Positions 2,826 to 16,254 of a stretch of DNA of 16,346 nucleotides are shown piece by piece. Made by a program: the position numbers and the translations under genes. Source of the stretch: a virus (taxonomy: Duplodnaviria; Heunggongvirae; Uroviricota; Caudoviricetes); the IMG/VR virus record IMGVR_UViG_2529292829_000006. One strand, written 5' to 3'. The first letter of the stretch is position 1. The number at the start of each line of letters is the position of its first letter. The notes under the pieces are model-generated. The model saw only the letters and a program-made list of their open reading frames with translations. It did no database searches and was not told the DNA's origin.

Positions 2826-2953
2826 CTGGTTGAGTATACAGTAGTAGACTTTGAGCGACGAAAGAAAAGGCTGTGTCTAGGGTCGCTCCCGAAAATCCGT
2901 ACACCTCGACGGACTGGTACAGCCACTACAGTAGAGGACGCTGAGGTGTGCGT

Positions 2954-4011: not shown

Positions 4012-4209
4012 ATGTCAAATACGCTTATTCGTTTAACAGAAGTTCAGCGTAGAACTGGATATAGCAAGGCATGGATTTATCGCCTTATGGGGCAAGGTAA
4101 ATTTCCTGCATCAGTTAAAATTGGCTCGCGAGCTATTGCTTTCGTTGAGAGTGAAATTGACGAGTGGATTAATCAGCGTATTGCGGAATCACGCGGAACA
4201 GCTACCTGA
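4012..4209 (+). CDS. alpA: AlpA-family phage/island transcriptional regulator (HTH)
   Basis: 65-aa protein with RLTEVQRRTGYSKAWIYRLMGQGKFP ... ESEIDEWINQR, the characteristic AlpA (CP4-57 regulatory protein) pattern; GAGG ribosome-binding site upstream. Confidence 0.85.
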   Translation: MSNTLIRLTEVQRRTGYSKAWIYRLMGQGKFPASVKIGSRAIAFVESEIDEWINQRIAESRGTAT

Positions 4210-4286: not shown

Positions 4287-5087
4287 ATGAAATTTCCAAA
4301 AATGCCCGTACAGGGGCGGGGCTTCGTTCGGCCTGAAAACCAGAATCTGCAAAATCTCGGCGAAATTATCCCGATTATTTCCGGCGTTATTGGCGGGAGT
4401 GAAACCAATATTGTTAGTGCCAGAGCGTTACATAAGGCGTTAGGTGTAGGGCGCGTTTTCCGTTCGTGGATCAAGGGGCGCATTGAAGAATACGGCTTCA
4501 CGGAAGGCGTGGATTATGAGGTTGTTGAATATTTGAGCCGACCCGATCCGGTGAGCGCAAAATCTCGCCAGCAAACAGCTCTTGAGTACATCATCACCGT
4601 GAACATGGCGAAAGAACTGGCGATGGTCGAACGTACCGAACAGGGCCGCGCCGTTCGCCAGTACTTTATCAAATGCGAGGAGGAGCTACACAAGGTTGCG
4701 CCTGTTCGTTCCGCAGCGTTACGCCGGGAACTGAAAGCCCGTATCACAGTTGCCAGCTACTTTAAGCCAATGTGTGCCGCGCTGGAGGCGTACCGGGCTG
4801 AACTGGGTAAAAACACACTCCAGCACCACTACACCACGGAAGCGAACATGCTGGCGCGTATCGTGCTGGGTGGCATGACTGCAAAACAGTGGGCACTGGC
4901 GAACGGCATTACAGGCGAACCACGCGACCACATGAGCACGTTGCAGCTTGAGCACCTTTCTTACCTTGAGCAGAGCAATATCACGCTGATTGAGTTAGGC
5001 CAGGACTACCACCAGCGGAAGGCTGAATTAATTCGTCTTTCGCAGCGTTGGTTAGCCCGTCGCATGGAGGAAAACAGCCATGTGTAA
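4287..5087 (+). CDS. phage antirepressor-like protein (AntA / KilA-C-type region)
   Basis: AGGAG 7 nt upstream of ATG; segment NIVSARALHKALGVGRVFRSWIKGRIEEYGFTEGVDYEV resembles antirepressor N-terminal domains, and TALEYIITVNMAKELAMVERTEQGRAVRQYFIKCEE resembles KilA-C/ANT regions. Assigned from memory of family patterns. Confidence 0.65.
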   Translation: MKFPKMPVQGRGFVRPENQNLQNLGEIIPIISGVIGGSETNIVSARALHKALGVGRVFRSWIKGRIEEYGFTEGVDYEVVEYLSRPDPVSAKSRQQTALEYIITVNMAKELAMVERTEQGRAVRQYFIKCEEELHKVAPVRSAALRRELKARITVASYFKPMCAALEAYRAELGKNTLQHHYTTEANMLARIVLGGMTAKQWALANGITGEPRDHMSTLQLEHLSYLEQSNITLIELGQDYHQRKAELIRLSQRWLARRMEENSHV

Positions 5088-5804
5088 CGCTCTGACCGTT
5101 ACAAAAAGAGAAAGCGCCCCGTTGCCGGAGCGCCTTTGTGAACGAATAGCCTACTGCGCCATATTGCTTACTGTCTACGAGGCAGATTATAGCGTTGTGG
5201 TCGCACAGAGTGAAGGCGCTGATCACCGTTACTACAGCACGCCAGAAATGCAGAATATTTTGCTGCAAAATGTCGTTGGTCACACTGTCCGGAAAGCAAA
5301 AAATTTTGCTGGTGGCGCGACTGATGCGATTTTGTCAGGTCGCCAGGTGCTGATCAATCTGATGTCTGATTTCGTTCTGGATAAAACAAAGGCGACCGCA
5401 GAGGGCCGCCAGTGGGAAAGCTACATACTTGAACGCATCGCCAACAATGCCAGATTTGCGGCTGGTGGGCAATGTGTCAGCTTTGCACCAATGACTCTAT
5501 GTTTAACTGAGGGTCATTATGGTGAATATGCTGGCTTGCTGGTGGGCTATTCCTGCTCTTTAACATTGCCATGCCGCGATGTTTTCCAGGTATGCGACCC
5601 CATTTTTGTGCGCCTGTACTCTTTAAGGAATTTCTCAAGGATAAACGCACAGGGCGCGAATCTGTTTGACTCATGCTCGTACGCTATCTTTCTGCGCTGT
5701 CTTTTCCGTGCCGGTGATGGTGTATTGGTTGATTTTTTGTTGGTCATGGCGCAGCCCTGTAAAACGATGCACCGTAGTTCCTCACACCACGGCGCTGGTG
5801 ATGG

Positions 5805-5984
5805 TTACTCCTGTTCTTTGGCCTTGCGGCGCTGGCGGTATTCAACTTCTCGCTTTAATGCTGCTGTTACAAACTGCCCTGTACTTTCACCAGGCATTTT
5901 TACCGCCTCAACATTGTTCATAACTTCATGCGGAACCCTTGCCGCAACTGTTTGTGATTTTGCGTTTACTGCTTTTGTCGCCAT
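5805..5984 (-). CDS. small (59 aa) basic protein, candidate ribbon-helix-helix (Arc-like) transcriptional regulator, divergent from the replication operon
   Basis: Hand translation of the minus strand: MATKAVNAKSQTVAARVPHEVMNNVEAVKMPGESTGQFVTAALKREVEYRQRRKAKEQE; SD AAGGGG 8 nt upstream of ATG; below the ORF-track length cutoff; operator-like palindromes lie immediately upstream. Confidence 0.5.
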   Translation of the reverse strand: MATKAVNAKSQTVAARVPHEVMNNVEAVKMPGESTGQFVTAALKREVEYRQRRKAKEQE

Positions 5985-6029
5985 GTTGTGTACCCCTTAC
6001 AAAAAACAAATGCAGTATGCAGGAAAAAA

Positions 6030-6110
6030 AATAAGTGTTCAACACTTGACGTGTTTAACACCTGGGCTTAAATTGGTGTTCAACACCTTGTTGATGCAAG
6101 GTGCAGAAAC
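6030..6110. promoter_or_regulatory. three copies of the palindrome GTGTT-N-AACAC (6035..6045, 6051..6061, 6076..6086) in the divergent intergenic region; candidate operator/promoter
   Basis: Read directly from sequence; lies between the minus-strand small gene (start 5984) and the plus-strand small-gene chain (start 6184). Confidence 0.5.
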
Positions 6111-6183
6111 GACAACGCCCCGCAGTGGTGGCACACATGCAGGGCGTCTAACCACCAACGATAGCAAGAGTATCGAGGTAGCT

Positions 6184-6387
6184 ATGAGAAATCATACCAC
6201 ACACCCGCAAGGGCGGGACTCGCACAACCTGAATAAATACATCTGGCGTTTTATCGCCCTGAGCACGGCACAACCGCGCGTAATTCACATCGAGGCCACC
6301 AGCGAACAGGAAGCACGCCAGCAATCTCCTGATGGCTGCGTGATGGTATTCGCCGCCCGTATTCGCCAGGAGGTGGAACATGTGTAA
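6184..6387 (+). CDS. small hypothetical protein (67 aa), first gene of a translationally coupled chain
   Basis: ATG at 6184 with GAGG upstream; MRNHTTHPQGRDSHNLNKYIWRFIALSTAQPRVIHIEATSEQEARQQSPDGCVMVFAARIRQEVEHV; stop overlaps the next start (ATGTGTAA). Confidence 0.45.
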   Translation: MRNHTTHPQGRDSHNLNKYIWRFIALSTAQPRVIHIEATSEQEARQQSPDGCVMVFAARIRQEVEHV

Positions 6388-7385: not shown

Positions 7386-7676
7386 ATGAAAAAGAAAAAT
7401 TCTGGCTTTACTGCCAGCGGCCTCTCTCGGCCTGAAATCCGCCCCGGTGATATTTTCCGGGACACCAGACGCGGGGGACGGGTGGTTATTCGTCACGTTA
7501 CGCCAGGCAATATCACCTACCGCCGTGAGGCTTACGAATATGACTGCGTAATGCCGCGCCGTCAGTTTGATCGTGATTTTATTGTGGTGGAAAACAAACA
7601 ACAGGCAGTGGCGAGACGTGCAGCCACGAATATTAAAAAAATCCGGGCAATGTTGGTTGCGGGAGGTAAGAAGTGA
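7386..7676 (+). CDS. small basic hypothetical protein (96 aa)
   Basis: Stop overlaps the GTG start of the primase/helicase gene (GTGA). Confidence 0.55.
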   Translation: MKKKNSGFTASGLSRPEIRPGDIFRDTRRGGRVVIRHVTPGNITYRREAYEYDCVMPRRQFDRDFIVVENKQQAVARRAATNIKKIRAMLVAGGKK

Positions 7677-9478
7677 AAAACGCACCGAGTCTAAAATATC
7701 AGCCGAAGGATAAATTCACTGAGGTAATCATTTTTGCCGGGATGGATGCTTACGCCCATGCTCAACACTGGATTGAAAGTGAAGGACGAAAACACGGCGA
7801 TAACGTGCCTCCTGTTTACCTGGGGCCAAAGCAACTGGCAGACCTGGCGAATATCCGCATTATTGACGAGAAACGCCGTTTTGCGCGTGTCTATATCGCG
7901 GGGGAGATAGAGCCAATCCAGATCAATACTATCGCTGAAAAGCTGGCGCTGGCTGGCGTACAGGAGGCGAAATTATACAAAGGTATCACCGACCAGGAAC
8001 CGGAGAACTGGCGCGACTACCTGCAACGGATCCGCGAACAGGCTGAGCACGGGGAAGTTTCAGTGATGAAATTAGCTACAAAAAATAGTGGTCTACCCAA
8101 GCCTGCATTAAATCAGATGGGAGCCAGCCAGAGAGGGGAAGTGTTACTTGAACATTATGGAGGAGCACTGGCGATAAATGATGATTCTGATGTAGTTCAC
8201 CATTACAACGGAATTGTTTGGGAGCCTGTATCTGATAAGGAACTCCAGCGGTCTATGGCGAAGATTTTTATTGATGCCGAAATTAGTTATTCGCAAAACG
8301 CCATTAAATTTGCCGTAGAGACAATGAAATTGAGTCTACCTGTTATGGGGGGAGCGGACAGAAATCTTATTGGGTTCAGTAACGGTGTTTTTGATATCAG
8401 GACAGGAAATTTTCGGGAACACAACAAAAATGACTGGTTGTTAAATGCCAGTGAATTACCGTTCAGCCCGCCAGAAGAGGGGGAAACGCTGGCAACACAT
8501 GCGCCGAATTTCTGGAAGTGGTTGCGTCGTTCGGTGGCGGATAATGCTCGTAAAGCGGATCGCGTACTGGCGGCATTATTCATGGTACTGGCGAACCGGT
8601 ACGACTGGCAGTTATTCCTTGAGGTAACGGGGCCGGGCGGAAGCGGTAAAAGTGTGATGGCGGAGATTTGTACCATGCTGGCGGGTAAGGCCAATACAGT
8701 ATCGGCGAGCATGAAGGCGCTGGAAGACGCGAGGGAACGAGCGTTAGTGGTGGGATATTCTCTGATTATCATGCCTGACATGACCCGCTACGCAGGTGAT
8801 GGTGCTGGGATTAAGGCCATTACAGGCGGTGACAAGGTGGCTATCGATCCGAAACACAAAGCGCCCTATTCCACGCGCGTTCCTGCGGTAGTGCTGGCAG
8901 TAAACAATTATGCCATGTCATTCAGCGACCGTAGTGGGGGGATCTCGCGTCGACGAGTAATATTTAATTTCTCTGAGGTTGTACCAGAGAACGAACGCGA
9001 TCCGATGCTGGCGAAAAAGATAGAAGGGGAACTGGCAGTAGTGATTCGCCATTTGCTTACACGATTTGCCGACCAGGACGAAGCGAAAAGACTACTTTAT
9101 GAGCAGCAAAAATCAGAAGAAGCACTGTTGATAAAGCGTGAAGGTGATTCGCTGGTGGACTTCTGCGGTTATCTGATGTCGTTGGTTAAATGTGAGGGAA
9201 TGATAGTAGGTAATGCAGAAATAGTGCCATTTAGTCCGAGGCGATATCTGTATCATGCTTATTTGGCTTATATGTCTGCGCATGGTCTGGGAAAACCGGT
9301 ATCACTGACACGCTTTGGTACAGATATGCCAGGGGCAATGGCTGAGTACGGAAAGGAGTACAAGCGGGCTAAATGCACTAAAGGTCCAGATAAAGGGCGA
9401 ACGATCACAAATGTTCTGTTAGATAAAGATGCTGATGGATGGTTACCAGCAACGGCAGGCATTAACGACAGAACATGA
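7673..9478 (+). CDS. phage/plasmid primase-helicase, P4-alpha-family C-terminal domain (island replication initiator)
   Basis: 601 aa; motif LIGFSNGVFDIRTGNFREHNKNDWLLNASELPF (D5-N / P4-family primase C-terminal signature) and P-loop LEVTGPGGSGKS; iteron array immediately downstream. Confidence 0.85.
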   Translation: MKNAPSLKYQPKDKFTEVIIFAGMDAYAHAQHWIESEGRKHGDNVPPVYLGPKQLADLANIRIIDEKRRFARVYIAGEIEPIQINTIAEKLALAGVQEAKLYKGITDQEPENWRDYLQRIREQAEHGEVSVMKLATKNSGLPKPALNQMGASQRGEVLLEHYGGALAINDDSDVVHHYNGIVWEPVSDKELQRSMAKIFIDAEISYSQNAIKFAVETMKLSLPVMGGADRNLIGFSNGVFDIRTGNFREHNKNDWLLNASELPFSPPEEGETLATHAPNFWKWLRRSVADNARKADRVLAALFMVLANRYDWQLFLEVTGPGGSGKSVMAEICTMLAGKANTVSASMKALEDARERALVVGYSLIIMPDMTRYAGDGAGIKAITGGDKVAIDPKHKAPYSTRVPAVVLAVNNYAMSFSDRSGGISRRRVIFNFSEVVPENERDPMLAKKIEGELAVVIRHLLTRFADQDEAKRLLYEQQKSEEALLIKREGDSLVDFCGYLMSLVKCEGMIVGNAEIVPFSPRRYLYHAYLAYMSAHGLGKPVSLTRFGTDMPGAMAEYGKEYKRAKCTKGPDKGRTITNVLLDKDADGWLPATAGINDRT

Positions 9479-9510
9479 TACGAAATTTATAAGTTGAAAC
9501 TTAAAAGTAG

Positions 9511-9843
9511 ACGGTTGGTAGACAGATACACTTAACCCTCTACCAACCATCTACTAATTAATGTTTTGAATTATATAGGTATTTTTAATGTGGTAGAGAG
9601 GTGGACAGTTTATTTTATATTTCTAAACCACGGGGGTATCTAAAAATAGATAGTTATGGGTTCATTTTTAAAATTTTTCTTTTAACTATCTACACTGTCT
9701 ACCATTTAGTAAAAGTCATTAATTATCAATGTATTAATACTGTAGAGAGTTGGTAGACAGTTTGCAGATTGTTTTTTTGTTATGTATTAATAACATTAAA
9801 TAAATCAAACAATTATATCGGTAGACAGTTGGTAGACAGTTGT
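9511..9843. repeat. iteron-type replication origin: at least six copies of (T)GGTAGACAG(TT) in both orientations flanking an AT-rich tract
   Basis: Copies near 9517, 9540 (inverted), 9591, 9690 (inverted), 9750, 9820 and 9831; AT-rich core about 9600..9740; located directly 3' of the primase/helicase gene. Confidence 0.6.
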
Positions 9844-10632: not shown

Positions 10633-10809
10633 GGCATTCAGGAAATACCAAAAAAAGAACAATTGTAGTCAGTAACAGAGGATGGGATTCTCTTGGTTTT
10701 TTGTTGATGCTTTCTGAGGAAATCTACTACGTTGCTGAGCAGATGAATATTCAATTGCATCTGGGTTCCTGATAAGATTAATCTGAATATTTTCATTTGG
10801 AATAGGGAT

Positions 10810-11952
10810 ATGAATAAAACTTTAATTGCAACATTAGTCGGTATAGTAATGTTAACCGGATGTGGGCCAGAAGAGTTAACTCCAGAACAGAAACAGGAAG
10901 TAGCGGCTCTTAAAGCTGAACTGTCGCAAACGGAAGGTGAAATATCAGCAGCTAAGGAAGTTGACCAGCAGTTTTCTGGTGGGTTGATAAAAAATCTGAC
11001 AACAGCAAGACTGGAAATATTAGGAACTAATAAAGCGCTTTTGGAACAGCGTATTAATGCTATTGAATCAGGTGCCAAAATTGATGTTGTTGTATCTGGA
11101 GTAAAACCTGATCCTGAGCTTGCGGCTTCAATTAAAACTGAAATTGACAGCTTAGATGCAAAAATCAACGAAGCCAAAGCTGATGCTCGTCAGTATAGTG
11201 GTGGTCTGATAAAGGTACTAAAATTATCTACTGTTGCCACTGAAGAGCAGACCATGGCAATGTTGCAGCAAAAGTACCTCACAGCCAAGTATGGCCTCGC
11301 TGAAGTTAAGCTGGCATCAGTACAAGATAATGACGCAAAAAACAGTACTGAAACGGAAGTAACAGCCAAAAATTCCCAAGGGCAACTTCCTTTACTCCCG
11401 CCAGCGGATGGTCCGTTTGGCTTAGAAGCCGGTCTTACACAGAAAAACATCGAAGATATGATCGGTGCTAAGCTCAAGCCACTACCAGACAGTGTGAATC
11501 TGTATACTTCTGATAAATTACCGAAGCAAAACGCAGATTTTGAAATGTATGGTTTGTTGATCTCCCCGAAAGCTGGTTTATGTCAAATACGGGCTTTAGG
11601 AAAAAATATTGATACTGATAGCTATGGATTGGCTCTTAAATCCAAGTTTGAAGAATTGAGTAATTCTTTAAGTTCTCTGTATGGAAAGGCTGATACTACA
11701 GACTTTTTGCTGGCTGGTTCAATTTGGAAAGATCCTCAGGACTGGATGAGGGGGCTAAACAAAAAAGAACGCTTCTTATCTGCCACATGGAAGGGAACAA
11801 AAGAAATACCATTAAAAAACAATATCGATACTATCTCTATTGAGGCCAGAGCGAACAATTCCACTCAGGGATATGTCTATCTGCAGTACTCATTTACAAA
11901 TGACGAAATTTGTCAGGAAGAAATTGAAGGGGCGAAAAAAAGTTCCCTTTAA
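10810..11952 (+). CDS. lipoprotein (type II signal peptide, lipobox LTGC) with tandem internal repeats; function unknown; AT-rich cargo
   Basis: MNKTLIATLVGIVMLTGC signal/lipobox; two similar ~55-aa segments (QFSGGLIKNLTTARLEILG... and QYSGGLIKVLKLSTVATEE...); SD AGGGA upstream; low GC. Confidence 0.75.
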   Translation: MNKTLIATLVGIVMLTGCGPEELTPEQKQEVAALKAELSQTEGEISAAKEVDQQFSGGLIKNLTTARLEILGTNKALLEQRINAIESGAKIDVVVSGVKPDPELAASIKTEIDSLDAKINEAKADARQYSGGLIKVLKLSTVATEEQTMAMLQQKYLTAKYGLAEVKLASVQDNDAKNSTETEVTAKNSQGQLPLLPPADGPFGLEAGLTQKNIEDMIGAKLKPLPDSVNLYTSDKLPKQNADFEMYGLLISPKAGLCQIRALGKNIDTDSYGLALKSKFEELSNSLSSLYGKADTTDFLLAGSIWKDPQDWMRGLNKKERFLSATWKGTKEIPLKNNIDTISIEARANNSTQGYVYLQYSFTNDEICQEEIEGAKKSSL

Positions 11953-11964
11953 ACAATCCGTGCA

Positions 11965-11992
11965 AAGCCCCTTAGTAAGGGGCTTTTATATA
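11965..11992 (+). terminator. rho-independent terminator (GCCCCT-TAGTA-AGGGGC followed by TTTTATAT)
   Basis: GC-rich hairpin plus T-tract read directly, immediately 3' of the lipoprotein gene. Confidence 0.6.
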
Positions 11993-12016
11993 TTAATGTT
12001 CAACGGGGGGGATTAG

Positions 12017-12340
12017 ATGAAAGATAATCTAGAAAAACTAATTGAAAATACTTTAAAAGATATTCTATTAGCTAATGCTGCTCTAACATTCATTTTTGCA
12101 ATACCAATGGCTATTATCAGTAGGCATGGGATGGGCATCACAATCTGGTTTATAACTGTGCTCATTGCACCTGCTCTGTGTGCAGTAGGTGCATGGCTTG
12201 TATCTCGAACATTCGGCCATGCTGAGGAGTTCTTTCATCGTCGGTGGGCTAAGCGAATCTATGTTTTTTATACTCTTGCGGCTGCCGAGTTTTTGCTTGT
12301 GTACTCAATCGCGCAAATAATGAAAAATCTGATGAAATAA
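12017..12340 (+). CDS. small integral membrane protein (107 aa, about 3 predicted transmembrane helices)
   Basis: Hydrophobic stretches LLANAALTFIFAIPMAII, ITIWFITVLIAPALCAVGAWLV, IYVFYTLAAAEFLLVYSIAQI; GGGGG ribosome-binding site about 8 nt upstream. Confidence 0.65.
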   Translation: MKDNLEKLIENTLKDILLANAALTFIFAIPMAIISRHGMGITIWFITVLIAPALCAVGAWLVSRTFGHAEEFFHRRWAKRIYVFYTLAAAEFLLVYSIAQIMKNLMK

Positions 12341-12529
12341 TTAACAAGTTATTATCATGGGGTTTGTGGCTGTTAACCTGCAGTGAGGCGACAATCGTGT
12401 ATTTATAAAAACTTCCCCTTTTCACTCCCCGCTGTTTCTTCTGCTATTTCCTTTATGTTTGCATGCAGCAACATCTGCCATACCTTTGCAGAAAAATCAG
12501 AGCATTTAGTGCCGAAGGTTGGTTTATTG

Positions 12530-12622
12530 ATGCTTTTTGTTTCATTTATTGCAATTATCGATGGTATTATTTCAATTTGTGCAATAATTGCAATTATTGT
12601 CATTCAGAAGGGATCATCATGA
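12530..12622 (+). CDS. possible 30-aa hydrophobic peptide (MLFVSFIAIIDGIISICAIIAIIVIQKGSS), start-coupled to the downstream gene
   Basis: In-frame ATG within track ORF 12383..12622; GAAGG about 12 nt upstream; stop overlaps the ATG at 12619 (ATGA). Could be a leader peptide or small membrane toxin-like peptide; speculative. Confidence 0.3.
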   Translation: MLFVSFIAIIDGIISICAIIAIIVIQKGSS

Positions 12623-14285: not shown

Positions 14286-15281
14286 ATGGATACGAGAGTG
14301 GCGACGATAATCAAAAATATAGCAATCAAAGGTCTTTTTAAACGGAAGGACATTGATTGGAGTTTAAAAGATGTGAATGTTTTAGTGGGTAAAAATGGCT
14401 CAGGTAAGAGCACGATAATTCAAAGTGTTTTTGCCCTCTTAAAACAAGAATTAAATGAAAGTTTAAGTAATGCTGCGTTGGCTCAAATAACATTGGCCAA
14501 TGGAGGCACAATTACTCACAAAGTTAATTTTCGCGAAATTGACTCTGTCCAGCTTCTAAACCTACTTAATAACCTTAAGAAAAACAGTATTAAAGGTAAA
14601 TCAAAGGGTAAGGAAATAAAGGAGTTAAATGAACTTATTGAGTTGCTTGAATCGAAAAAAGAAGACACTGAAATTAAAGAGTTCGGGATGGGAACTGTTA
14701 GCGTAAGTGATAATATTAAAAACACTAAGCGAATAAATGTTGAGTTAATATCAACTATCAATATGAGTGCCAATTCCATCTATGAATTCAAAAAAAGTGA
14801 TGGTGAGCGCACCACAATTCTTGATATGGAAATTGCTGGTGAATTAGAAAGGTTAAAGAATACTTTCAAAGTAAGTGAGTCTAAAGGTATTCTCATAAAG
14901 GATAAGTTGGAATCAGCTATAAATAATTTATTTGCTGAATGTAACAAAGTTGTTTCTTTTAGTAATGGTAACATTTCTATTAAGATGAGTGATTCTGGTG
15001 AAGATATTAGGTATAATCTTCTTTCATCAGGTGAACGTCAGTTGTTATATATTCTGATTAAAACAGCTAATACTTCATTGGATGAATCTGTCTTGTTGAT
15101 GGATGAGCCAGAAATATCCTTGCACCTTACGTGGCAAGAAAGATTAATAAGCACCATCAAATCAATTAACGATAATTGTCAGTTAATTATTGTTACTCAT
15201 AGTCCTGCAATATTAATGAAAGGCTGGATGGATTCTTTCGTAGATATAAAAAATATTTCAAAGGAATCTTCTCATGACTGA
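14286..15281 (+). CDS. ABC-type ATPase (AAA_15/AAA_21-like, OLD/AriA-like), first gene of a candidate anti-phage pair
   Basis: Walker A VGKNGSGKST, ABC signature LSSGERQ, Walker B VLLMDEPE, H-loop IIVTHSP; AT-rich; possible TATAAT at about 14261; an alternative GTG start at 14298 is possible. Confidence 0.85.
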   Translation: MDTRVATIIKNIAIKGLFKRKDIDWSLKDVNVLVGKNGSGKSTIIQSVFALLKQELNESLSNAALAQITLANGGTITHKVNFREIDSVQLLNLLNNLKKNSIKGKSKGKEIKELNELIELLESKKEDTEIKEFGMGTVSVSDNIKNTKRINVELISTINMSANSIYEFKKSDGERTTILDMEIAGELERLKNTFKVSESKGILIKDKLESAINNLFAECNKVVSFSNGNISIKMSDSGEDIRYNLLSSGERQLLYILIKTANTSLDESVLLMDEPEISLHLTWQERLISTIKSINDNCQLIIVTHSPAILMKGWMDSFVDIKNISKESSHD

Positions 15282-16254
15282 GTTTGAGGATATTAATTTT
15301 AGCGAAGAATATCTTCAGGTATATTGTATTATGGCTGGACACAATGGCTTTGTCTTTGTTGAAGGTCTAAAAGACATTTCTTTCTGGGAAGGCTTATTAA
15401 ACGATAAAGATAATGATATACGTTTTGATATTTGTAACCCTACCAATAAAGGAACAAAAGGGAAACCAGTATTAAAAAAATTCATGAGCCGAGCAAATCG
15501 ATATGCCATATTTGCAATGGATAGTGATTTTGATTATTTATGCCCTAAAAACAGTACAGACTCAGAGATAATTTGCAGTAACAAGTTTATTTTTCAAACA
15601 TTTGTATATTCAAAAGAGAGCATCGAGTTACACCATGAAGTCCTTGAGTATTGTCTTTCTCAAATAAAGATCGCTACTGAAATTAAATTCGATTTTACAG
15701 CATACATTACAGAGTATTCACGGTTGATCTACCCCGTGCTGAAGAAATTTTTATTGCTTAAACAGCATCAAGTTAGACTTGATGACTCAGTTTTCCATGA
15801 AGCGATTGCTCCTTCTGTGCCACGATTAACGAACCAATTTGTTATCAAAAATGCTGTATTTGAAAGTATGCAGCAATCTAAAGCGGTTATTGAAGAAAAA
15901 CTTGATAACCTTATTCAAGATGAATACGATGCTGATAAATTCTATGAGCAGTTATATGATAAAGGATTGAGAGAAGATAACGCCTATCAATATATCAATG
16001 GTCATTTTTTAGCTGATAGAGTTGTCATGCCTGTCATAAAATCATTGATAGAGCAATTGAATATTAATGAAACTGCCTTAATAGTCAAACAATGCAAAGA
16101 TAAACCAACCTTAATCTCGGAAAGAAAGAGTGAGCTAAAAAATATTCTTGAAACTGATTTGAATATTAATACGCTATTACACTGTTGCAAAGAAAAGTTC
16201 AAAACTCCTTGTGCTATTGCGATCAAAGAAAATGTAGCTCGAGCTTTAGCATGA
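15274..16254 (+). CDS. TOPRIM-like (DUF4435-type) putative nuclease, OLD/AriB-like effector candidate
   Basis: 8-nt overlap with the ATPase gene (ATGACTGA); N-terminal FVFVEGLKD (conserved Glu) and AIFAMDSDFDY (DxD) in TOPRIM-like spacing; AT-rich. Confidence 0.75.
   Translation: MTEFEDINFSEEYLQVYCIMAGHNGFVFVEGLKDISFWEGLLNDKDNDIRFDICNPTNKGTKGKPVLKKFMSRANRYAIFAMDSDFDYLCPKNSTDSEIICSNKFIFQTFVYSKESIELHHEVLEYCLSQIKIATEIKFDFTAYITEYSRLIYPVLKKFLLLKQHQVRLDDSVFHEAIAPSVPRLTNQFVIKNAVFESMQQSKAVIEEKLDNLIQDEYDADKFYEQLYDKGLREDNAYQYINGHFLADRVVMPVIKSLIEQLNINETALIVKQCKDKPTLISERKSELKNILETDLNINTLLHCCKEKFKTPCAIAIKENVARALA

What the first reader, a model, noticed from the sequence alone, without database searches (positions are those of the whole stretch)
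10810..12340. AT-rich lipoprotein + small membrane protein pair between the replication and packaging modules
Seen: a 380-aa lipoprotein (lipobox LTGC) with two tandem ~55-aa repeats, a strong terminator, then a 107-aa three-helix membrane protein with its own ribosome-binding site. Both are much lower in GC than flanking backbone genes, indicating separately acquired cargo. No family recognised. Inference: envelope-located cargo on a satellite is a typical place for superinfection exclusion or abortive-infection functions; this could be an uncharacterised system.
Basis: partly seen in the sequence, partly recalled or inferred. Interest (0 to 1): 0.6.

Follow-up and report, generated by a model that had tools for sequence, protein, structure and literature searches.

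The report
Mobile envelope lipoprotein cassette on satellite
A self-contained gene cassette for an uncharacterised outer-membrane lipoprotein, here followed by a small membrane protein, sits in the known cargo slot of an E. coli phage satellite and also travels alone among prophages and satellites, making it an untested candidate for blocking phage entry.

Summary
Window 10810-11952 encodes a 380-aa lipoprotein (lipobox LTGC) with two helical-hairpin repeats, a variable linker and a C-terminal alpha/beta domain modelled at pLDDT 97. A conserved terminator follows, then a 107-aa three-helix membrane protein (TM3). Both genes are about 39-40% GC, against 48-60% in the flanks. No Pfam, NCBIfam, PHROGs, PADLOC or PDB family matches either protein.

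The two genes are not an obligate pair. TM3 always follows the lipoprotein, but only 2 of 29 lipoprotein lineages, plus one decayed remnant, carry TM3.

The lipoprotein is a ~1.2-kb mobile unit (leader, gene, terminator). It occurs:
- downstream of the primase gene in PICI-type satellites, a slot already shown to hold defence cargo;
- next to the tape-measure gene in siphovirus prophages, the HK97 gp15 moron slot;
- alone beside tRNA genes in decayed islands.

Related E. coli islands have this slot empty. In Klebsiella satellites an Imm_superinfect protein occupies TM3's position.

Best reading (confidence 0.4): an envelope-level superinfection-exclusion cassette, with TM3 as an added inner-membrane layer. 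Function is inferred, not shown. Against a phage target: strong purifying selection, and identical lipoproteins beside unrelated tape measures.

The parts
10650..12537 (.). Variable insert (cargo) relative to related E. coli islands whose slot is empty
   Evidence: blastn of the window against island L098 (strain BCE049). Backbone homology covers the window up to 10649 and from 12538 onward; only 147 unrelated bases lie between in L098. The PerC-to-55-aa-gene gap is empty in L098 and L100.
10766..10809 (+). Conserved 5' leader of the lipoprotein cassette. It holds an extended -10-like element, TG-n-TAAGAT (10770-10778), and the ribosome-binding site TAGGGAT.
   Evidence: DNA homology to copies in unrelated contexts starts sharply at 10766-10770. 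The alignment of upstream regions shows conserved cTG-(A/T)TAGGAT...TGGGATAGGGATATG. No transcription-start data exist, so the promoter is inferred.
10773..10786 (+). Pseudo-palindrome TAAGATTAATCTGA, an exact match to the RcsB box TN(G/A)GAN4TC(T/C)NA
   Evidence: It is the only match in the window; 0.74 are expected by chance. It is present at the same position in 17 of 31 lipoprotein representatives, with the central N4 varying. The consensus is from PMC7913699. Binding was not tested.
10810..10863 (+). Signal peptide and lipobox (LTGC, Cys18); +2 Gly and +3 Pro
   Evidence: Translation. G17/C18/G19/P20 are invariant. Outer-membrane sorting follows from the +2 rule (established knowledge), not from a test.
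10882..11292 (+). N-terminal domain: two tandem helical hairpins (residues 25-161), each with an SGGLIK turn
   Evidence: Internal repeat, E = 2e-7. AlphaFold helices. dN/dS is 0.02-0.06. The domain occurs alone or fused to other C-terminal domains in other proteins.
11293..11403 (+). Variable linker, predicted disordered (residues 162-198)
   Evidence: pLDDT below 50. It is the only poorly conserved stretch in the family alignment and has the highest dN.
11404..11952 (+). C-terminal globular alpha/beta domain (residues 199-380, starting GPFGLEAG; Cys258 and Cys368 invariant), plus the stop codon
   Evidence: AlphaFold model from 51 diverse sequences: pLDDT 97.1, pTM 0.90. The domain occurs alone as ~200-aa secreted proteins in many bacteria. 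There is no convincing solved-structure match.
11964..11990 (+). Intrinsic terminator of the lipoprotein cassette
   Evidence: The hairpin GCCCCTTA..AAGGGGC plus T-run is conserved in E. coli, Klebsiella and Yokenella. A hairpin plus T-run follows the gene in nearly all contexts.
12017..12340 (+). TM3: a 107-aa basic (pI 9.5) protein with three predicted transmembrane helices; an add-on to the cassette in one sublineage
   Evidence: ORF and hydrophobic segments. There are 17 homologue clusters. Every locus examined lies 64-70 nt downstream of the lipoprotein. dN/dS is 0.16. No family hit.

Best explanation
What is shown. The lipoprotein gene is an autonomous, horizontally mobile 'moron' cassette of about 1.2 kb: a short conserved leader, the gene, and its own terminator. 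In this window it occupies the accessory slot between the replication module (primase, iteron origin, ProQ/PerC) and the downstream small-gene module of a PICI-type satellite integrated at thrW. A second gene, TM3, has been added directly behind the terminator in this lineage. TM3 encodes a small basic protein with three membrane helices. It is under purifying selection and is never seen without the lipoprotein.

What is inferred about the product. After signal peptidase II cleavage, the protein is anchored by Cys18 to the inner leaflet of the outer membrane, because there is no Asp at +2. It then presents a highly conserved globular head on a double helical-hairpin stalk and a ~35-residue flexible linker that reach into the periplasm.

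What is inferred about function. The lipoprotein is made in cells that carry the element. It acts at the envelope to exclude superinfecting phages. Most likely it binds a conserved host envelope component needed for phage DNA entry, rather than a variable phage protein. TM3 probably adds a second block at the inner membrane, like other small membrane exclusion proteins. A conserved RcsB-box-like palindrome overlaps the putative -10 element. This suggests a link to the Rcs envelope-stress regulator, with the direction of control unknown.
For: Cassette anatomy:
- Homology between contexts begins at window 10766 and ends at 11953-11993.
- A terminator follows the gene in nearly every context, even though the hairpin sequences differ.
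- GC is 40% against 48-60% in the flanks.
- The slot is empty in related islands.

Contexts:
- downstream of pri in satellites that have three different replication proteins;
- between the tail-chaperone slot and the tape-measure gene in lambdoid prophages, with gpM/gpL/gpK homologues further on;
- after the tail-fibre assembly gene at the end of a myovirus prophage;
- alone, 300-400 nt from tRNA-Arg, tRNA-Gly or thrW in decayed islands, which argues that the host retains it.

Precedents:
- The PICI slot downstream of pri carries defence genes (PMC11364771).
- The chaperone/tape-measure slot is where the HK97 gp15 exclusion moron lies (PMC3594210).
- The lipoprotein Ltp excludes phages (PMC3952083).

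Other support:
- The position of TM3 is held by a PF14373 Imm_superinfect protein (E = 4e-16) in Klebsiella satellites.
- Both genes are under purifying selection, so both are functional.
- The lipobox is invariant.
- The RcsB box is conserved in 17 of 31 representatives.
Against: - No experiment and no homology links either protein to phage exclusion. PADLOC, Pfam, PHROGs and NCBIfam are silent.
- Neither the lipoprotein nor its C-domain consensus matches any of 50,697 sequenced phage genomes.
- Very strong purifying selection (dN/dS 0.02-0.12) and 60% identity across Enterobacterales genera are unusual for an arms-race protein.
- Lipoproteins that are 99% identical sit beside tape-measure proteins only 24-28% identical. 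The tape-measure neighbourhood is therefore positional, not co-evolutionary.
- The C-domain family is very large (2,852 clusters at 50% identity) and is mostly stand-alone secreted proteins in diverse bacteria. A general envelope role is therefore possible.
- The RcsB-like box overlaps the putative -10 element, which would suggest repression rather than induction.
- The promoter is inferred only.
Confidence: 0.4

Rival explanations
1. It is a lysogenic-conversion or envelope-fitness factor unrelated to phages. The lipoprotein would strengthen or modify the envelope in the manner of lambda Bor, plasmid TraT or Rcs-regulated stress lipoproteins: for example serum or antimicrobial resistance, outer membrane-peptidoglycan tethering, or stress tolerance. 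Mobile elements would carry it because it benefits the host.
For: - Strong purifying selection and high conservation across genera.
- Retention as the sole survivor of decayed islands next to tRNA genes.
- A conserved RcsB-box-like site.
- A large family of stand-alone C-domain proteins in non-phage contexts, such as the Sinorhizobium chromid.
- The same lipoprotein is found with unrelated tape measures.
Against: - The gene is rare: 112-113 of 5,426 complete E. coli genomes.
- Within Enterobacterales it is almost always in or beside mobile elements, in slots known for anti-phage cargo.
- A superinfection-immunity-family neighbour occupies the adjacent sub-slot.
- There is no similarity to Bor, TraT or Lpp families.
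Confidence: 0.3
2. It is a periplasmic immunity or inhibitor protein. The C-domain would neutralise an incoming toxin or a cell-wall hydrolase (a type VI effector, a colicin, a phage or host muramidase), as lipoprotein lysozyme inhibitors and periplasmic immunity proteins do.
For: - In one metagenomic protein the N-domain is fused to a type VI VasI domain.
- The mature protein is acidic, pI 4.9.
Against: - No toxin or effector gene is linked to it in any of ~90 loci.
Confidence: 0.12
3. It serves the mobile element's own life cycle. Made late, it would protect released particles from being wasted on debris or on already infected cells (as T5 Llp does), or it would help envelope disruption at lysis.
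For: - In prophages the gene lies inside the late tail operon, in the same orientation, directly before the tape-measure gene.
- In satellites it precedes the module that includes a tape-measure homologue.
Against: - Its own terminator, and its leader conserved independently of context, point to autonomous expression.
- It survives alone in decayed islands with no phage genes.
- It is not in a lysis cassette and has no C-terminal membrane anchor as spanins have.
- It does not co-vary with tape measures.
Confidence: 0.1
4. This is the first reader's version: the lipoprotein and TM3 form one obligate two-component envelope defence system, for example a sensor plus a membrane effector causing abortive infection.
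For: - TM3 is never found without the lipoprotein.
- In E. coli the two are always present or absent together.
- TM3 is under purifying selection.
Against: - The lipoprotein cassette is complete and mobile without TM3 in most lineages.
- A conserved terminator separates the genes.
- TM3's ribosome-binding site is not conserved in Klebsiella or Yokenella.
- Other satellites have unrelated small membrane proteins, a second lipoprotein, or nothing at this position.
Confidence: 0.08

Closest known systems
HK97 gp15 moron (superinfection exclusion; Cumby et al. 2012, reviewed in PMC3594210)
   Same: - It is an autonomous unit with its own terminator and deviant GC content.
[quoted passage not shown]
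- Its product is targeted to the envelope.
- It has bacterial homologues outside prophages.
   Different: - gp15 is a small inner-membrane protein of the YebO family, whereas this is a 380-aa two-domain lipoprotein with no sequence similarity to it.
- gp15's exclusion activity is demonstrated; this protein's is not.
Phage exclusion lipoproteins: T5 Llp, phi80/N15 Cor, Streptococcus phage TP-J34 Ltp
   Same: - They are lipid-anchored envelope proteins encoded by mobile elements that block infection at the receptor or DNA-entry step.
- Ltp has tandem repeat domains and targets the tape measure.
   Different: - There is no sequence or family match, and no fold match to solved structures.
- Llp and Cor are small (~60-80 aa).
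- This protein does not co-vary with the adjacent tape measures.
- Its function is untested.
T4 Imm-type small membrane 'superinfection immunity' proteins (Pfam PF14373)
   Same: A PF14373 protein sits between the lipoprotein and the 55-aa gene in Klebsiella satellites, which is the position TM3 holds here. Both are ~107-aa multi-helix membrane proteins.
   Different: TM3 itself gives no PF14373 hit at E <= 0.1. It has three predicted helices and no zinc ribbon.
Tai tail-assembly-inhibition genes in the PICI region downstream of pri (He et al. 2024, PMC11364771)
   Same: They occupy the same accessory slot of the same kind of satellite, and they were also unrecognised by PADLOC and DefenseFinder when found.
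   Different: - Tai proteins act in the cytoplasm on tail-fibre or needle assembly.
- This protein is exported and lipidated.
- It has no tblastn match in the phage collection, which should contain the Tai-encoding phi80.
Lambda Bor and plasmid TraT (lysogenic-conversion or surface-exclusion lipoproteins)
   Same: They are outer-membrane lipoproteins carried as cargo by mobile elements and expressed from the resident element.
   Different: There is no homology, and the size and domain architecture are different.

Membership tests
Bacterial lipoprotein (signal peptidase II substrate) | N-terminal signal peptide ending in a lipobox [LVI][ASTVI][GAS]C | tested here: met
   The N-terminus is MNKTLIATLVGIVMLTG-C18. 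The lipobox Cys and its flanks are invariant in 20 homologues.
Bacterial lipoprotein (signal peptidase II substrate) | Actual lipidation and outer-membrane location | not testable with these tools
   A +2 Gly (not Asp) predicts outer-membrane sorting by the established Lol rule. This is an inference only.
Moron (autonomous cargo unit in a phage or satellite) | Own transcription terminator | tested here: met
   Hairpin plus T-run at 11964-11990. An equivalent terminator is found in nearly all contexts.
Moron (autonomous cargo unit in a phage or satellite) | Own promoter, expressed from the resident element | tested here: inconclusive
   The conserved TG-n-TA(A/G)GAT extended -10-like element travels with the gene. 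The consensus promoter scan did not call it. No transcription-start data exist.
Moron (autonomous cargo unit in a phage or satellite) | Base composition unlike its neighbours, and presence/absence among related elements | tested here: met
   GC is 40% against 48-60% in the flanks. Islands L098 and L100 have the slot empty.
PICI accessory/immune region downstream of pri | Location between the replication gene and the downstream module of an int-alpA-pri island | tested here: met
   Gene order in the window and in 10 or more related satellites. The region is defined in PMC11364771.
PICI accessory/immune region downstream of pri | Anti-phage activity of the cargo | not testable with these tools
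   This requires plaque and adsorption assays.
Tai (tail assembly inhibition) | Sequence homology to Tai proteins (phi80 orf63 and relatives) | tested here: not met
   tblastn of the lipoprotein against 50,697 phage genomes found no match at E <= 1e-3. The lipoprotein is exported, whereas Tai acts in the cytoplasm.
Known anti-phage defence systems (PADLOC-DB 2.0) | A match to any system's protein model | tested here: not met
   Zero families for both proteins at E <= 0.1. In the same call, the AriA/AriB genes downstream match strongly.
Superinfection immunity protein family (PF14373), considered for TM3 | A match to the Pfam model | tested here: not met
   TM3 gives no PF14373 hit. The positional analogue in L038 scores 59 bits against a cut-off of 27.9.
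Obligate two-gene system (lipoprotein + TM3) | Reciprocal co-occurrence across genomes | tested here: not met
   TM3 always occurs with the lipoprotein. The lipoprotein occurs with TM3 in only 2 of 29 lineages, plus one remnant.
RcsB regulon | RcsB box TN(G/A)GAN4TC(T/C)NA near the promoter | tested here: met
   There is an exact match at 10773-10786, the only one in the window. It is conserved at the same position in 17 of 31 representatives. The consensus is from PMC7913699.
RcsB regulon | RcsB binding and RcsB-dependent expression | not testable with these tools
   This requires gel-shift or footprint assays and reporter assays in rcsB and rcsF mutants.

The most novel reading that the evidence does not exclude
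The lipoprotein would be the founding member of a new, widespread class of envelope-level anti-phage factor. It would be an outer-membrane-anchored stalk-and-head protein, wired to the Rcs envelope-stress regulator, that blocks phage genome entry by occupying a conserved periplasmic host component. It would spread as a plug-in cassette among satellites and prophages and be kept by the host after the carrier decays. Lineage-specific inner-membrane partners such as TM3 would extend the block.
Probability: 0.25. Interest if true: 0.7.

Novelty: new variant of a known kind. Interest (0 to 1): 0.55.

Why it matters
Superinfection-exclusion genes are under-sampled. They are small, envelope-located and missed by defence-finding tools.

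This cassette is compact, clearly delimited and testable. Its C-terminal domain (modelled at pLDDT 97) and its N-terminal domain each belong to a very large unannotated family: about 2,850 clusters at 50% identity match one domain or the other.

The cassette occupies two independently validated cargo slots. It also carries a conserved candidate operator for the envelope-stress regulator RcsB.

If it excludes phages, three things would follow:
- a new protein family would join the list of envelope defences;
- the outer-membrane and periplasmic steps of phage DNA entry in enterobacteria would become accessible to study;
- phage defence would be tied to the Rcs stress response.

It is present in clinically relevant strains, including the O104:H4 outbreak strain 2011C-3493 and ST361-type isolates. 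This could matter for the choice of therapeutic phages.

If it has no phage phenotype, it is still a conserved mobile envelope factor worth assigning.

Tried and rejected
1. Family scans of both proteins in Pfam, NCBIfam, PHROGs and PADLOC gave only insignificant hits, namely LpoB, Lpp and TgpA_N at E from 0.003 to 0.08.

2. Profile searches of the PDB by sequence found only designed coiled coils.

3. Fold searches with the pLDDT-97 C-domain model found nothing convincing.
- Foldseek against the PDB gave nothing at E <= 0.001.
- BFVD gave only an 'Erwinia phage lipoprotein' of unknown function, TM 0.62.
- The AlphaFold-database library was unavailable.

4. tblastn of the lipoprotein and of a C-domain consensus against 50,697 phage genomes gave no match. 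This rejects Tai membership.

5. I tested whether the lipoprotein co-varies with the neighbouring tape-measure protein. This is rejected: 99%-identical lipoproteins sit beside 24-28%-identical tape measures, with an overall rho of 0.37, which relatedness can explain.

6. The obligate-pair hypothesis is rejected.

7. Source names for cluster members are only 'hypothetical', 'lipoprotein' and one automatic 'TolA-binding protein' label.

8. A literature search by RefSeq accession and by topic found no paper on these proteins.

10. The full-length AlphaFold model is of low confidence (pLDDT 61) outside the helices. I did not use it for fold search.
Full report
SETTING

The window begins with the end of proA and tRNA-Thr(CGT), which is thrW. 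An integrated element follows, with these parts:
- a tyrosine integrase (1611-2825);
- an Rfam int-alpA RNA (2870-2937);
- an AlpA-like HTH gene (4012-4209);
- an AntA/B-like gene and a DUF4222 gene;
- a 601-aa primase (7673-9478; PHROG DNA primase, E = 2e-152);
- an AT-rich stretch (28.5% GC) with eight or more GGTAGACAGTT iterons in both orientations (9500-9840);
- a ProQ/FinO-family gene and a PerC-family gene.

The two genes of the finding come next. After them lie a 55-aa gene, a 90-aa gene and an HTH_17 gene. The element ends with an AriA/AriB (PARIS-type) pair (PADLOC E = 2.6e-43 and 3.6e-22). This is the int-alpA-pri layout of a PICI-type satellite. I could not run a formal satellite classifier.

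THE OBSERVATION

The 380-aa ORF (10810-11952) starts MNKTLIATLVGIVMLTGC, and the lipobox cysteine and its neighbours are invariant among homologues.

The N-terminal half contains a true internal duplication (34% identity over 50 residues, E = 2e-7). AlphaFold renders it as two helix-turn-helix hairpins, each with an SGGLIK turn.

A variable linker, predicted disordered, follows at residues 162-198. After it comes a C-terminal domain. Modelled alone with 51 diverse homologues, that domain reaches pLDDT 97.1 and pTM 0.90.

The terminator at 11964-11986 has a 10-bp stem.

The 107-aa ORF (12017-12340) has three hydrophobic segments, a pI of 9.5 and a strong Shine-Dalgarno sequence.

GC is 40.2% and 38.6% (GC3 about 32-33%) for the two genes. 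The upstream genes are at 59-60% and the downstream genes at 48-50%.

Neither protein matches any Pfam, NCBIfam, PHROGs or PADLOC family.

THE PAIR IS CARGO

The 1.75-kb segment is at least 99% identical in 111 of the 113 complete E. coli genomes that carry it (113 of 5,426), and always chromosomal. One carrier is O104:H4 2011C-3493.

Islands with the same backbone exist with an empty slot. In strains BCE049 and CFSAN018748 the PerC gene is followed after 110-200 nt by the 55-aa gene. Backbone homology to the window stops at 10649 and resumes at 12538.

The pair also occurs in islands with a different replication protein and a different integration site. Cargo at the 3' end differs between islands:
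- PARIS in this window;
- two hypothetical genes in strain F9792;
- a SIR2 gene in BCE049;
- a DUF3800 gene in CFSAN018748.

He et al. (2024) showed experimentally that the region 'downstream of the pri gene' is an accessory region of PICIs that carries anti-phage genes (PMC11364771). The finding lies in that region.

THE TWO GENES ARE NOT ONE SYSTEM

The lipoprotein has at least 320 homologue clusters at 90% identity across Enterobacterales, at 60-99% identity. TM3 has only 17.

Every TM3 locus examined lies 64-70 nt downstream of a lipoprotein gene. These loci come from E. coli, E. ruysiae, Klebsiella, Yokenella and 17 IMG/VR contigs.

I collected 87 lipoprotein loci, which fall into 29 groups at 95% identity. 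Only two groups carry TM3. A decayed Yokenella copy is a third case.

DNA homology between the window and copies in other contexts begins sharply at 10766-10770 and ends at 11953-11993, just after the stop codon or terminator. Only in Klebsiella and Yokenella does it continue, and there it ends at or within TM3.

The terminator between the two genes is conserved, but TM3's ribosome-binding site is not.

Both genes are under purifying selection, so both are functional:
- lipoprotein N-domain, dN/dS 0.02-0.06;
- lipoprotein C-domain, dN/dS 0.05-0.12;
- TM3, dN/dS 0.16.

The correct description is a self-contained lipoprotein cassette, to which TM3 was added in one sublineage.

WHERE THE CASSETTE LIVES

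a) In PICI-type satellites it lies downstream of the replication gene. This holds whether that gene is a P4-alpha-like primase, a Zn-ribbon/Toprim/DUF927 primase or a DUF927 protein. Examples come from Enterobacter, Klebsiella, Pantoea, Tatumella and Lonsdalea.

b) In lambdoid siphovirus prophages it lies inside the tail module, after the major tail and chaperone-slot genes and some Ant-like morons.
- It is immediately upstream of the tape-measure gene, with gpM (PF05939), gpL (PF05100) and gpK-like (NlpC/P60) genes further downstream.
- In some loci the G/T chaperones or a zinc-ribbon gene lie between it and the tape-measure gene.
- In one group it lies just after the tape-measure gene.
- This is the slot of the first described moron, HK97 gene 15, which encodes a superinfection-exclusion protein (PMC3594210).

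c) In one case it lies at the end of a myovirus prophage, after the tail-fibre assembly gene.

d) It also occurs alone, 300-400 nt from tRNA-Arg(TCT), tRNA-Gly(CCC) or thrW. These are what look like decayed islands, which have lost the integrase and replication genes but kept the cassette.

In total, 12 of the 29 groups are adjacent to a tape-measure gene. A hairpin plus T-run follows the gene in almost every context, although the hairpin sequences differ.

THE LEADER

The ~44 nt that travel with the gene contain TG-n-TA(A/G)GAT, an extended -10-like element, and a conserved ribosome-binding site.

Overlapping the -10-like hexamer is TAAGATTAATCTGA (10773-10786), which is TAGGATTAATCCGA in most relatives. 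It matches exactly the RcsB box TN(G/A)GAN4TC(T/C)NA defined structurally for Salmonella RcsB (PMC7913699).

It is the only match in the window, where 0.74 are expected by chance, so on its own it is not significant. However, it recurs at the same distance from the lipobox codon in 17 of 31 representatives, down to 53% protein identity. The central four bases vary while the GA/TC arms are kept.

This makes it a credible operator. Its position over the -10 would suggest repression or a non-standard arrangement. The direction of regulation is unknown.

WHAT THE PROTEIN IS

A profile search of 1.84 billion cluster representatives found 2,852 matches at E <= 0.001. It shows that the protein is modular.
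- The C-domain occurs alone in ~200-aa secreted proteins of many bacteria. It begins GPFGL.MG and has two mostly conserved cysteines.
- The N-domain occurs alone or fused to other C-terminal domains, once to a type VI VasI domain.

No member carries a functional name.

In the viral structure library the best match is an uncharacterised 'lipoprotein' of an Erwinia phage (E = 1e-6, TM 0.62).

With Gly at +2, the established sorting rule predicts an outer-membrane anchor. The stalk-linker-head design would let the head reach into the periplasm. This is inference.

MECHANISM

Four kinds of evidence favour an envelope-level exclusion role.
- The cassette sits in slots where exclusion or defence genes have been demonstrated.
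- It has the autonomous anatomy expected of a gene expressed from a resident element.
- The host keeps it after the carrier decays.
- Its neighbours are envelope proteins. In Klebsiella satellites the place of TM3 is taken by a 108-aa membrane protein matching Pfam 'superinfection immunity protein' PF14373 (59 bits, E = 4e-16). In other satellites it is taken by a second small lipoprotein or by nothing.

Lipoprotein exclusion factors are well established. Examples are T5 Llp, phi80 Cor, and Ltp, which targets the tape measure.

I tested the attractive idea that this lipoprotein targets the tape measure next to it. The idea does not hold. Lipoproteins 99% identical are paired with tape measures only 24-28% identical, and the overall correlation is weak (rho 0.37).

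Strong purifying selection and cross-genus conservation point the same way. Together they suggest that any target is a conserved host envelope component rather than a fast-evolving phage protein.

I therefore commit, at confidence 0.4, to this reading. The lipoprotein is a moron-type outer-membrane factor that blocks phage entry by acting on a conserved envelope component. TM3 is a lineage-specific inner-membrane add-on.

The main rival (0.3) is a phage-independent envelope-fitness factor. The lesser rivals are:
- an immunity or inhibitor protein (0.12);
- a role in the element's own life cycle (0.1);

NOVELTY

The kind of thing is known: envelope cargo, a moron, in a satellite's accessory slot. 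The protein families are unannotated, and defence-prediction models do not recognise them. I found no paper on them.

I rate it a new variant of a known kind and moderately interesting. It is well delimited and easy to test, but its function is unproven.

Noticed in passing
L017 11837-14410; L018 (1202-aa ORF after the lipoprotein); L038 11789-14584; L062 13161-15965; L072 11805-14801: PICI-type satellites (int-alpA-pri, no capsid genes seen) encode a full-length tape-measure protein homologue of 857-1202 aa (PF20155 TMP_3, E = 3e-51; PHROG tail length tape measure, E down to 1e-171). A tail-completion/Neck1-like gene (phrog_5) lies further downstream. The tape measures are mosaic between otherwise near-identical satellites (24-84% identity). 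I found no paper describing satellites that carry their own tape measure.
   Followed up: partly
L038 10822-11148 (+): A 108-aa membrane protein with a Pfam Imm_superinfect domain (PF14373, E = 4e-16) plus a C-terminal zinc ribbon lies between the lipoprotein and the 55-aa gene in Klebsiella pneumoniae satellites. This is exactly where TM3 lies in the window. A 54-aa two-helix ORF (L038 10254-10418) lies between the lipoprotein and this gene.
   Followed up: yes
window 14286-16254: An AAA_15/21 ATPase (331 aa) and an overlapping DUF4435 protein (326 aa) match PADLOC AriA (E = 2.6e-43) and AriB (E = 3.6e-22). This is a PARIS-type defence pair at the 3' end of the island, at 32% GC. Other islands with the same backbone carry different genes here: two hypothetical genes, a SIR2 gene, or a DUF3800 gene. 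Klebsiella carries a KAP NTPase.
   Followed up: partly
window 9500-9840: The AT-rich stretch (28.5% GC) after the primase holds eight or more copies of GGTAGACAGTT in both orientations. It is probably the island's replication origin.
   Followed up: partly
window 2870-2937: An Rfam int-alpA RNA (RF02996, 45.5 bits against a gathering score of 35.8) lies between the integrase and the next gene.
   Followed up: no
window 12383-12622 and 12543-12599: The low-GC stretch before the 55-aa gene contains repeated ATTGCAAT palindromes, which may be operators. It also contains a small, very hydrophobic + strand ORF whose stop overlaps the 55-aa gene's start (ATGA). RefSeq instead annotates a 66-aa ORF on the opposite strand. 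The ORF is not conserved in empty-slot islands, so the stretch may be regulatory rather than coding.
   Followed up: partly
L096 4944-5528 (Deinococcus geothermalis plasmid pDGEO01): A stand-alone homologue of the lipoprotein's C-domain (37.6% identity, E = 5e-28) is annotated between cas6e and cas1e, inside a type I-E CRISPR-Cas operon.
   Followed up: no
protein P0184 (metagenomic, 365 aa): The lipoprotein's N-terminal double-hairpin domain is fused to a type VI secretion VasI domain (PF11319, E = 4e-9) in place of the usual C-domain. The N-domain therefore behaves as a reusable membrane-anchored stalk.
   Followed up: no
window 7673-9478 compared with L099 1624-3756, L100 2187-3599 and L031 5463-7592: Islands sharing the DUF4222...ProQ-PerC...55-aa-gene backbone carry three unrelated replication proteins in the same position: a 601-aa P4-alpha-like primase, a ~710-aa DUF927 protein, and a RepA-family helicase. 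In strain F9792 the primase is frameshifted.
   Followed up: partly
L062 12062-12538: In some Klebsiella-type satellites a second small lipoprotein (internal start MKIIMVLISSLLFLTAC) occupies the sub-slot between the 380-aa-type lipoprotein and the 55-aa gene.
   Followed up: no
window 5080-6387: The 435-aa ORF listed here is probably not a gene. In the near-identical island of strain F9792, RefSeq annotates small genes in this stretch instead: a YlcI/YnfO family gene, an Icd-like gene and hypothetical genes, some on the opposite strand.
   Followed up: no
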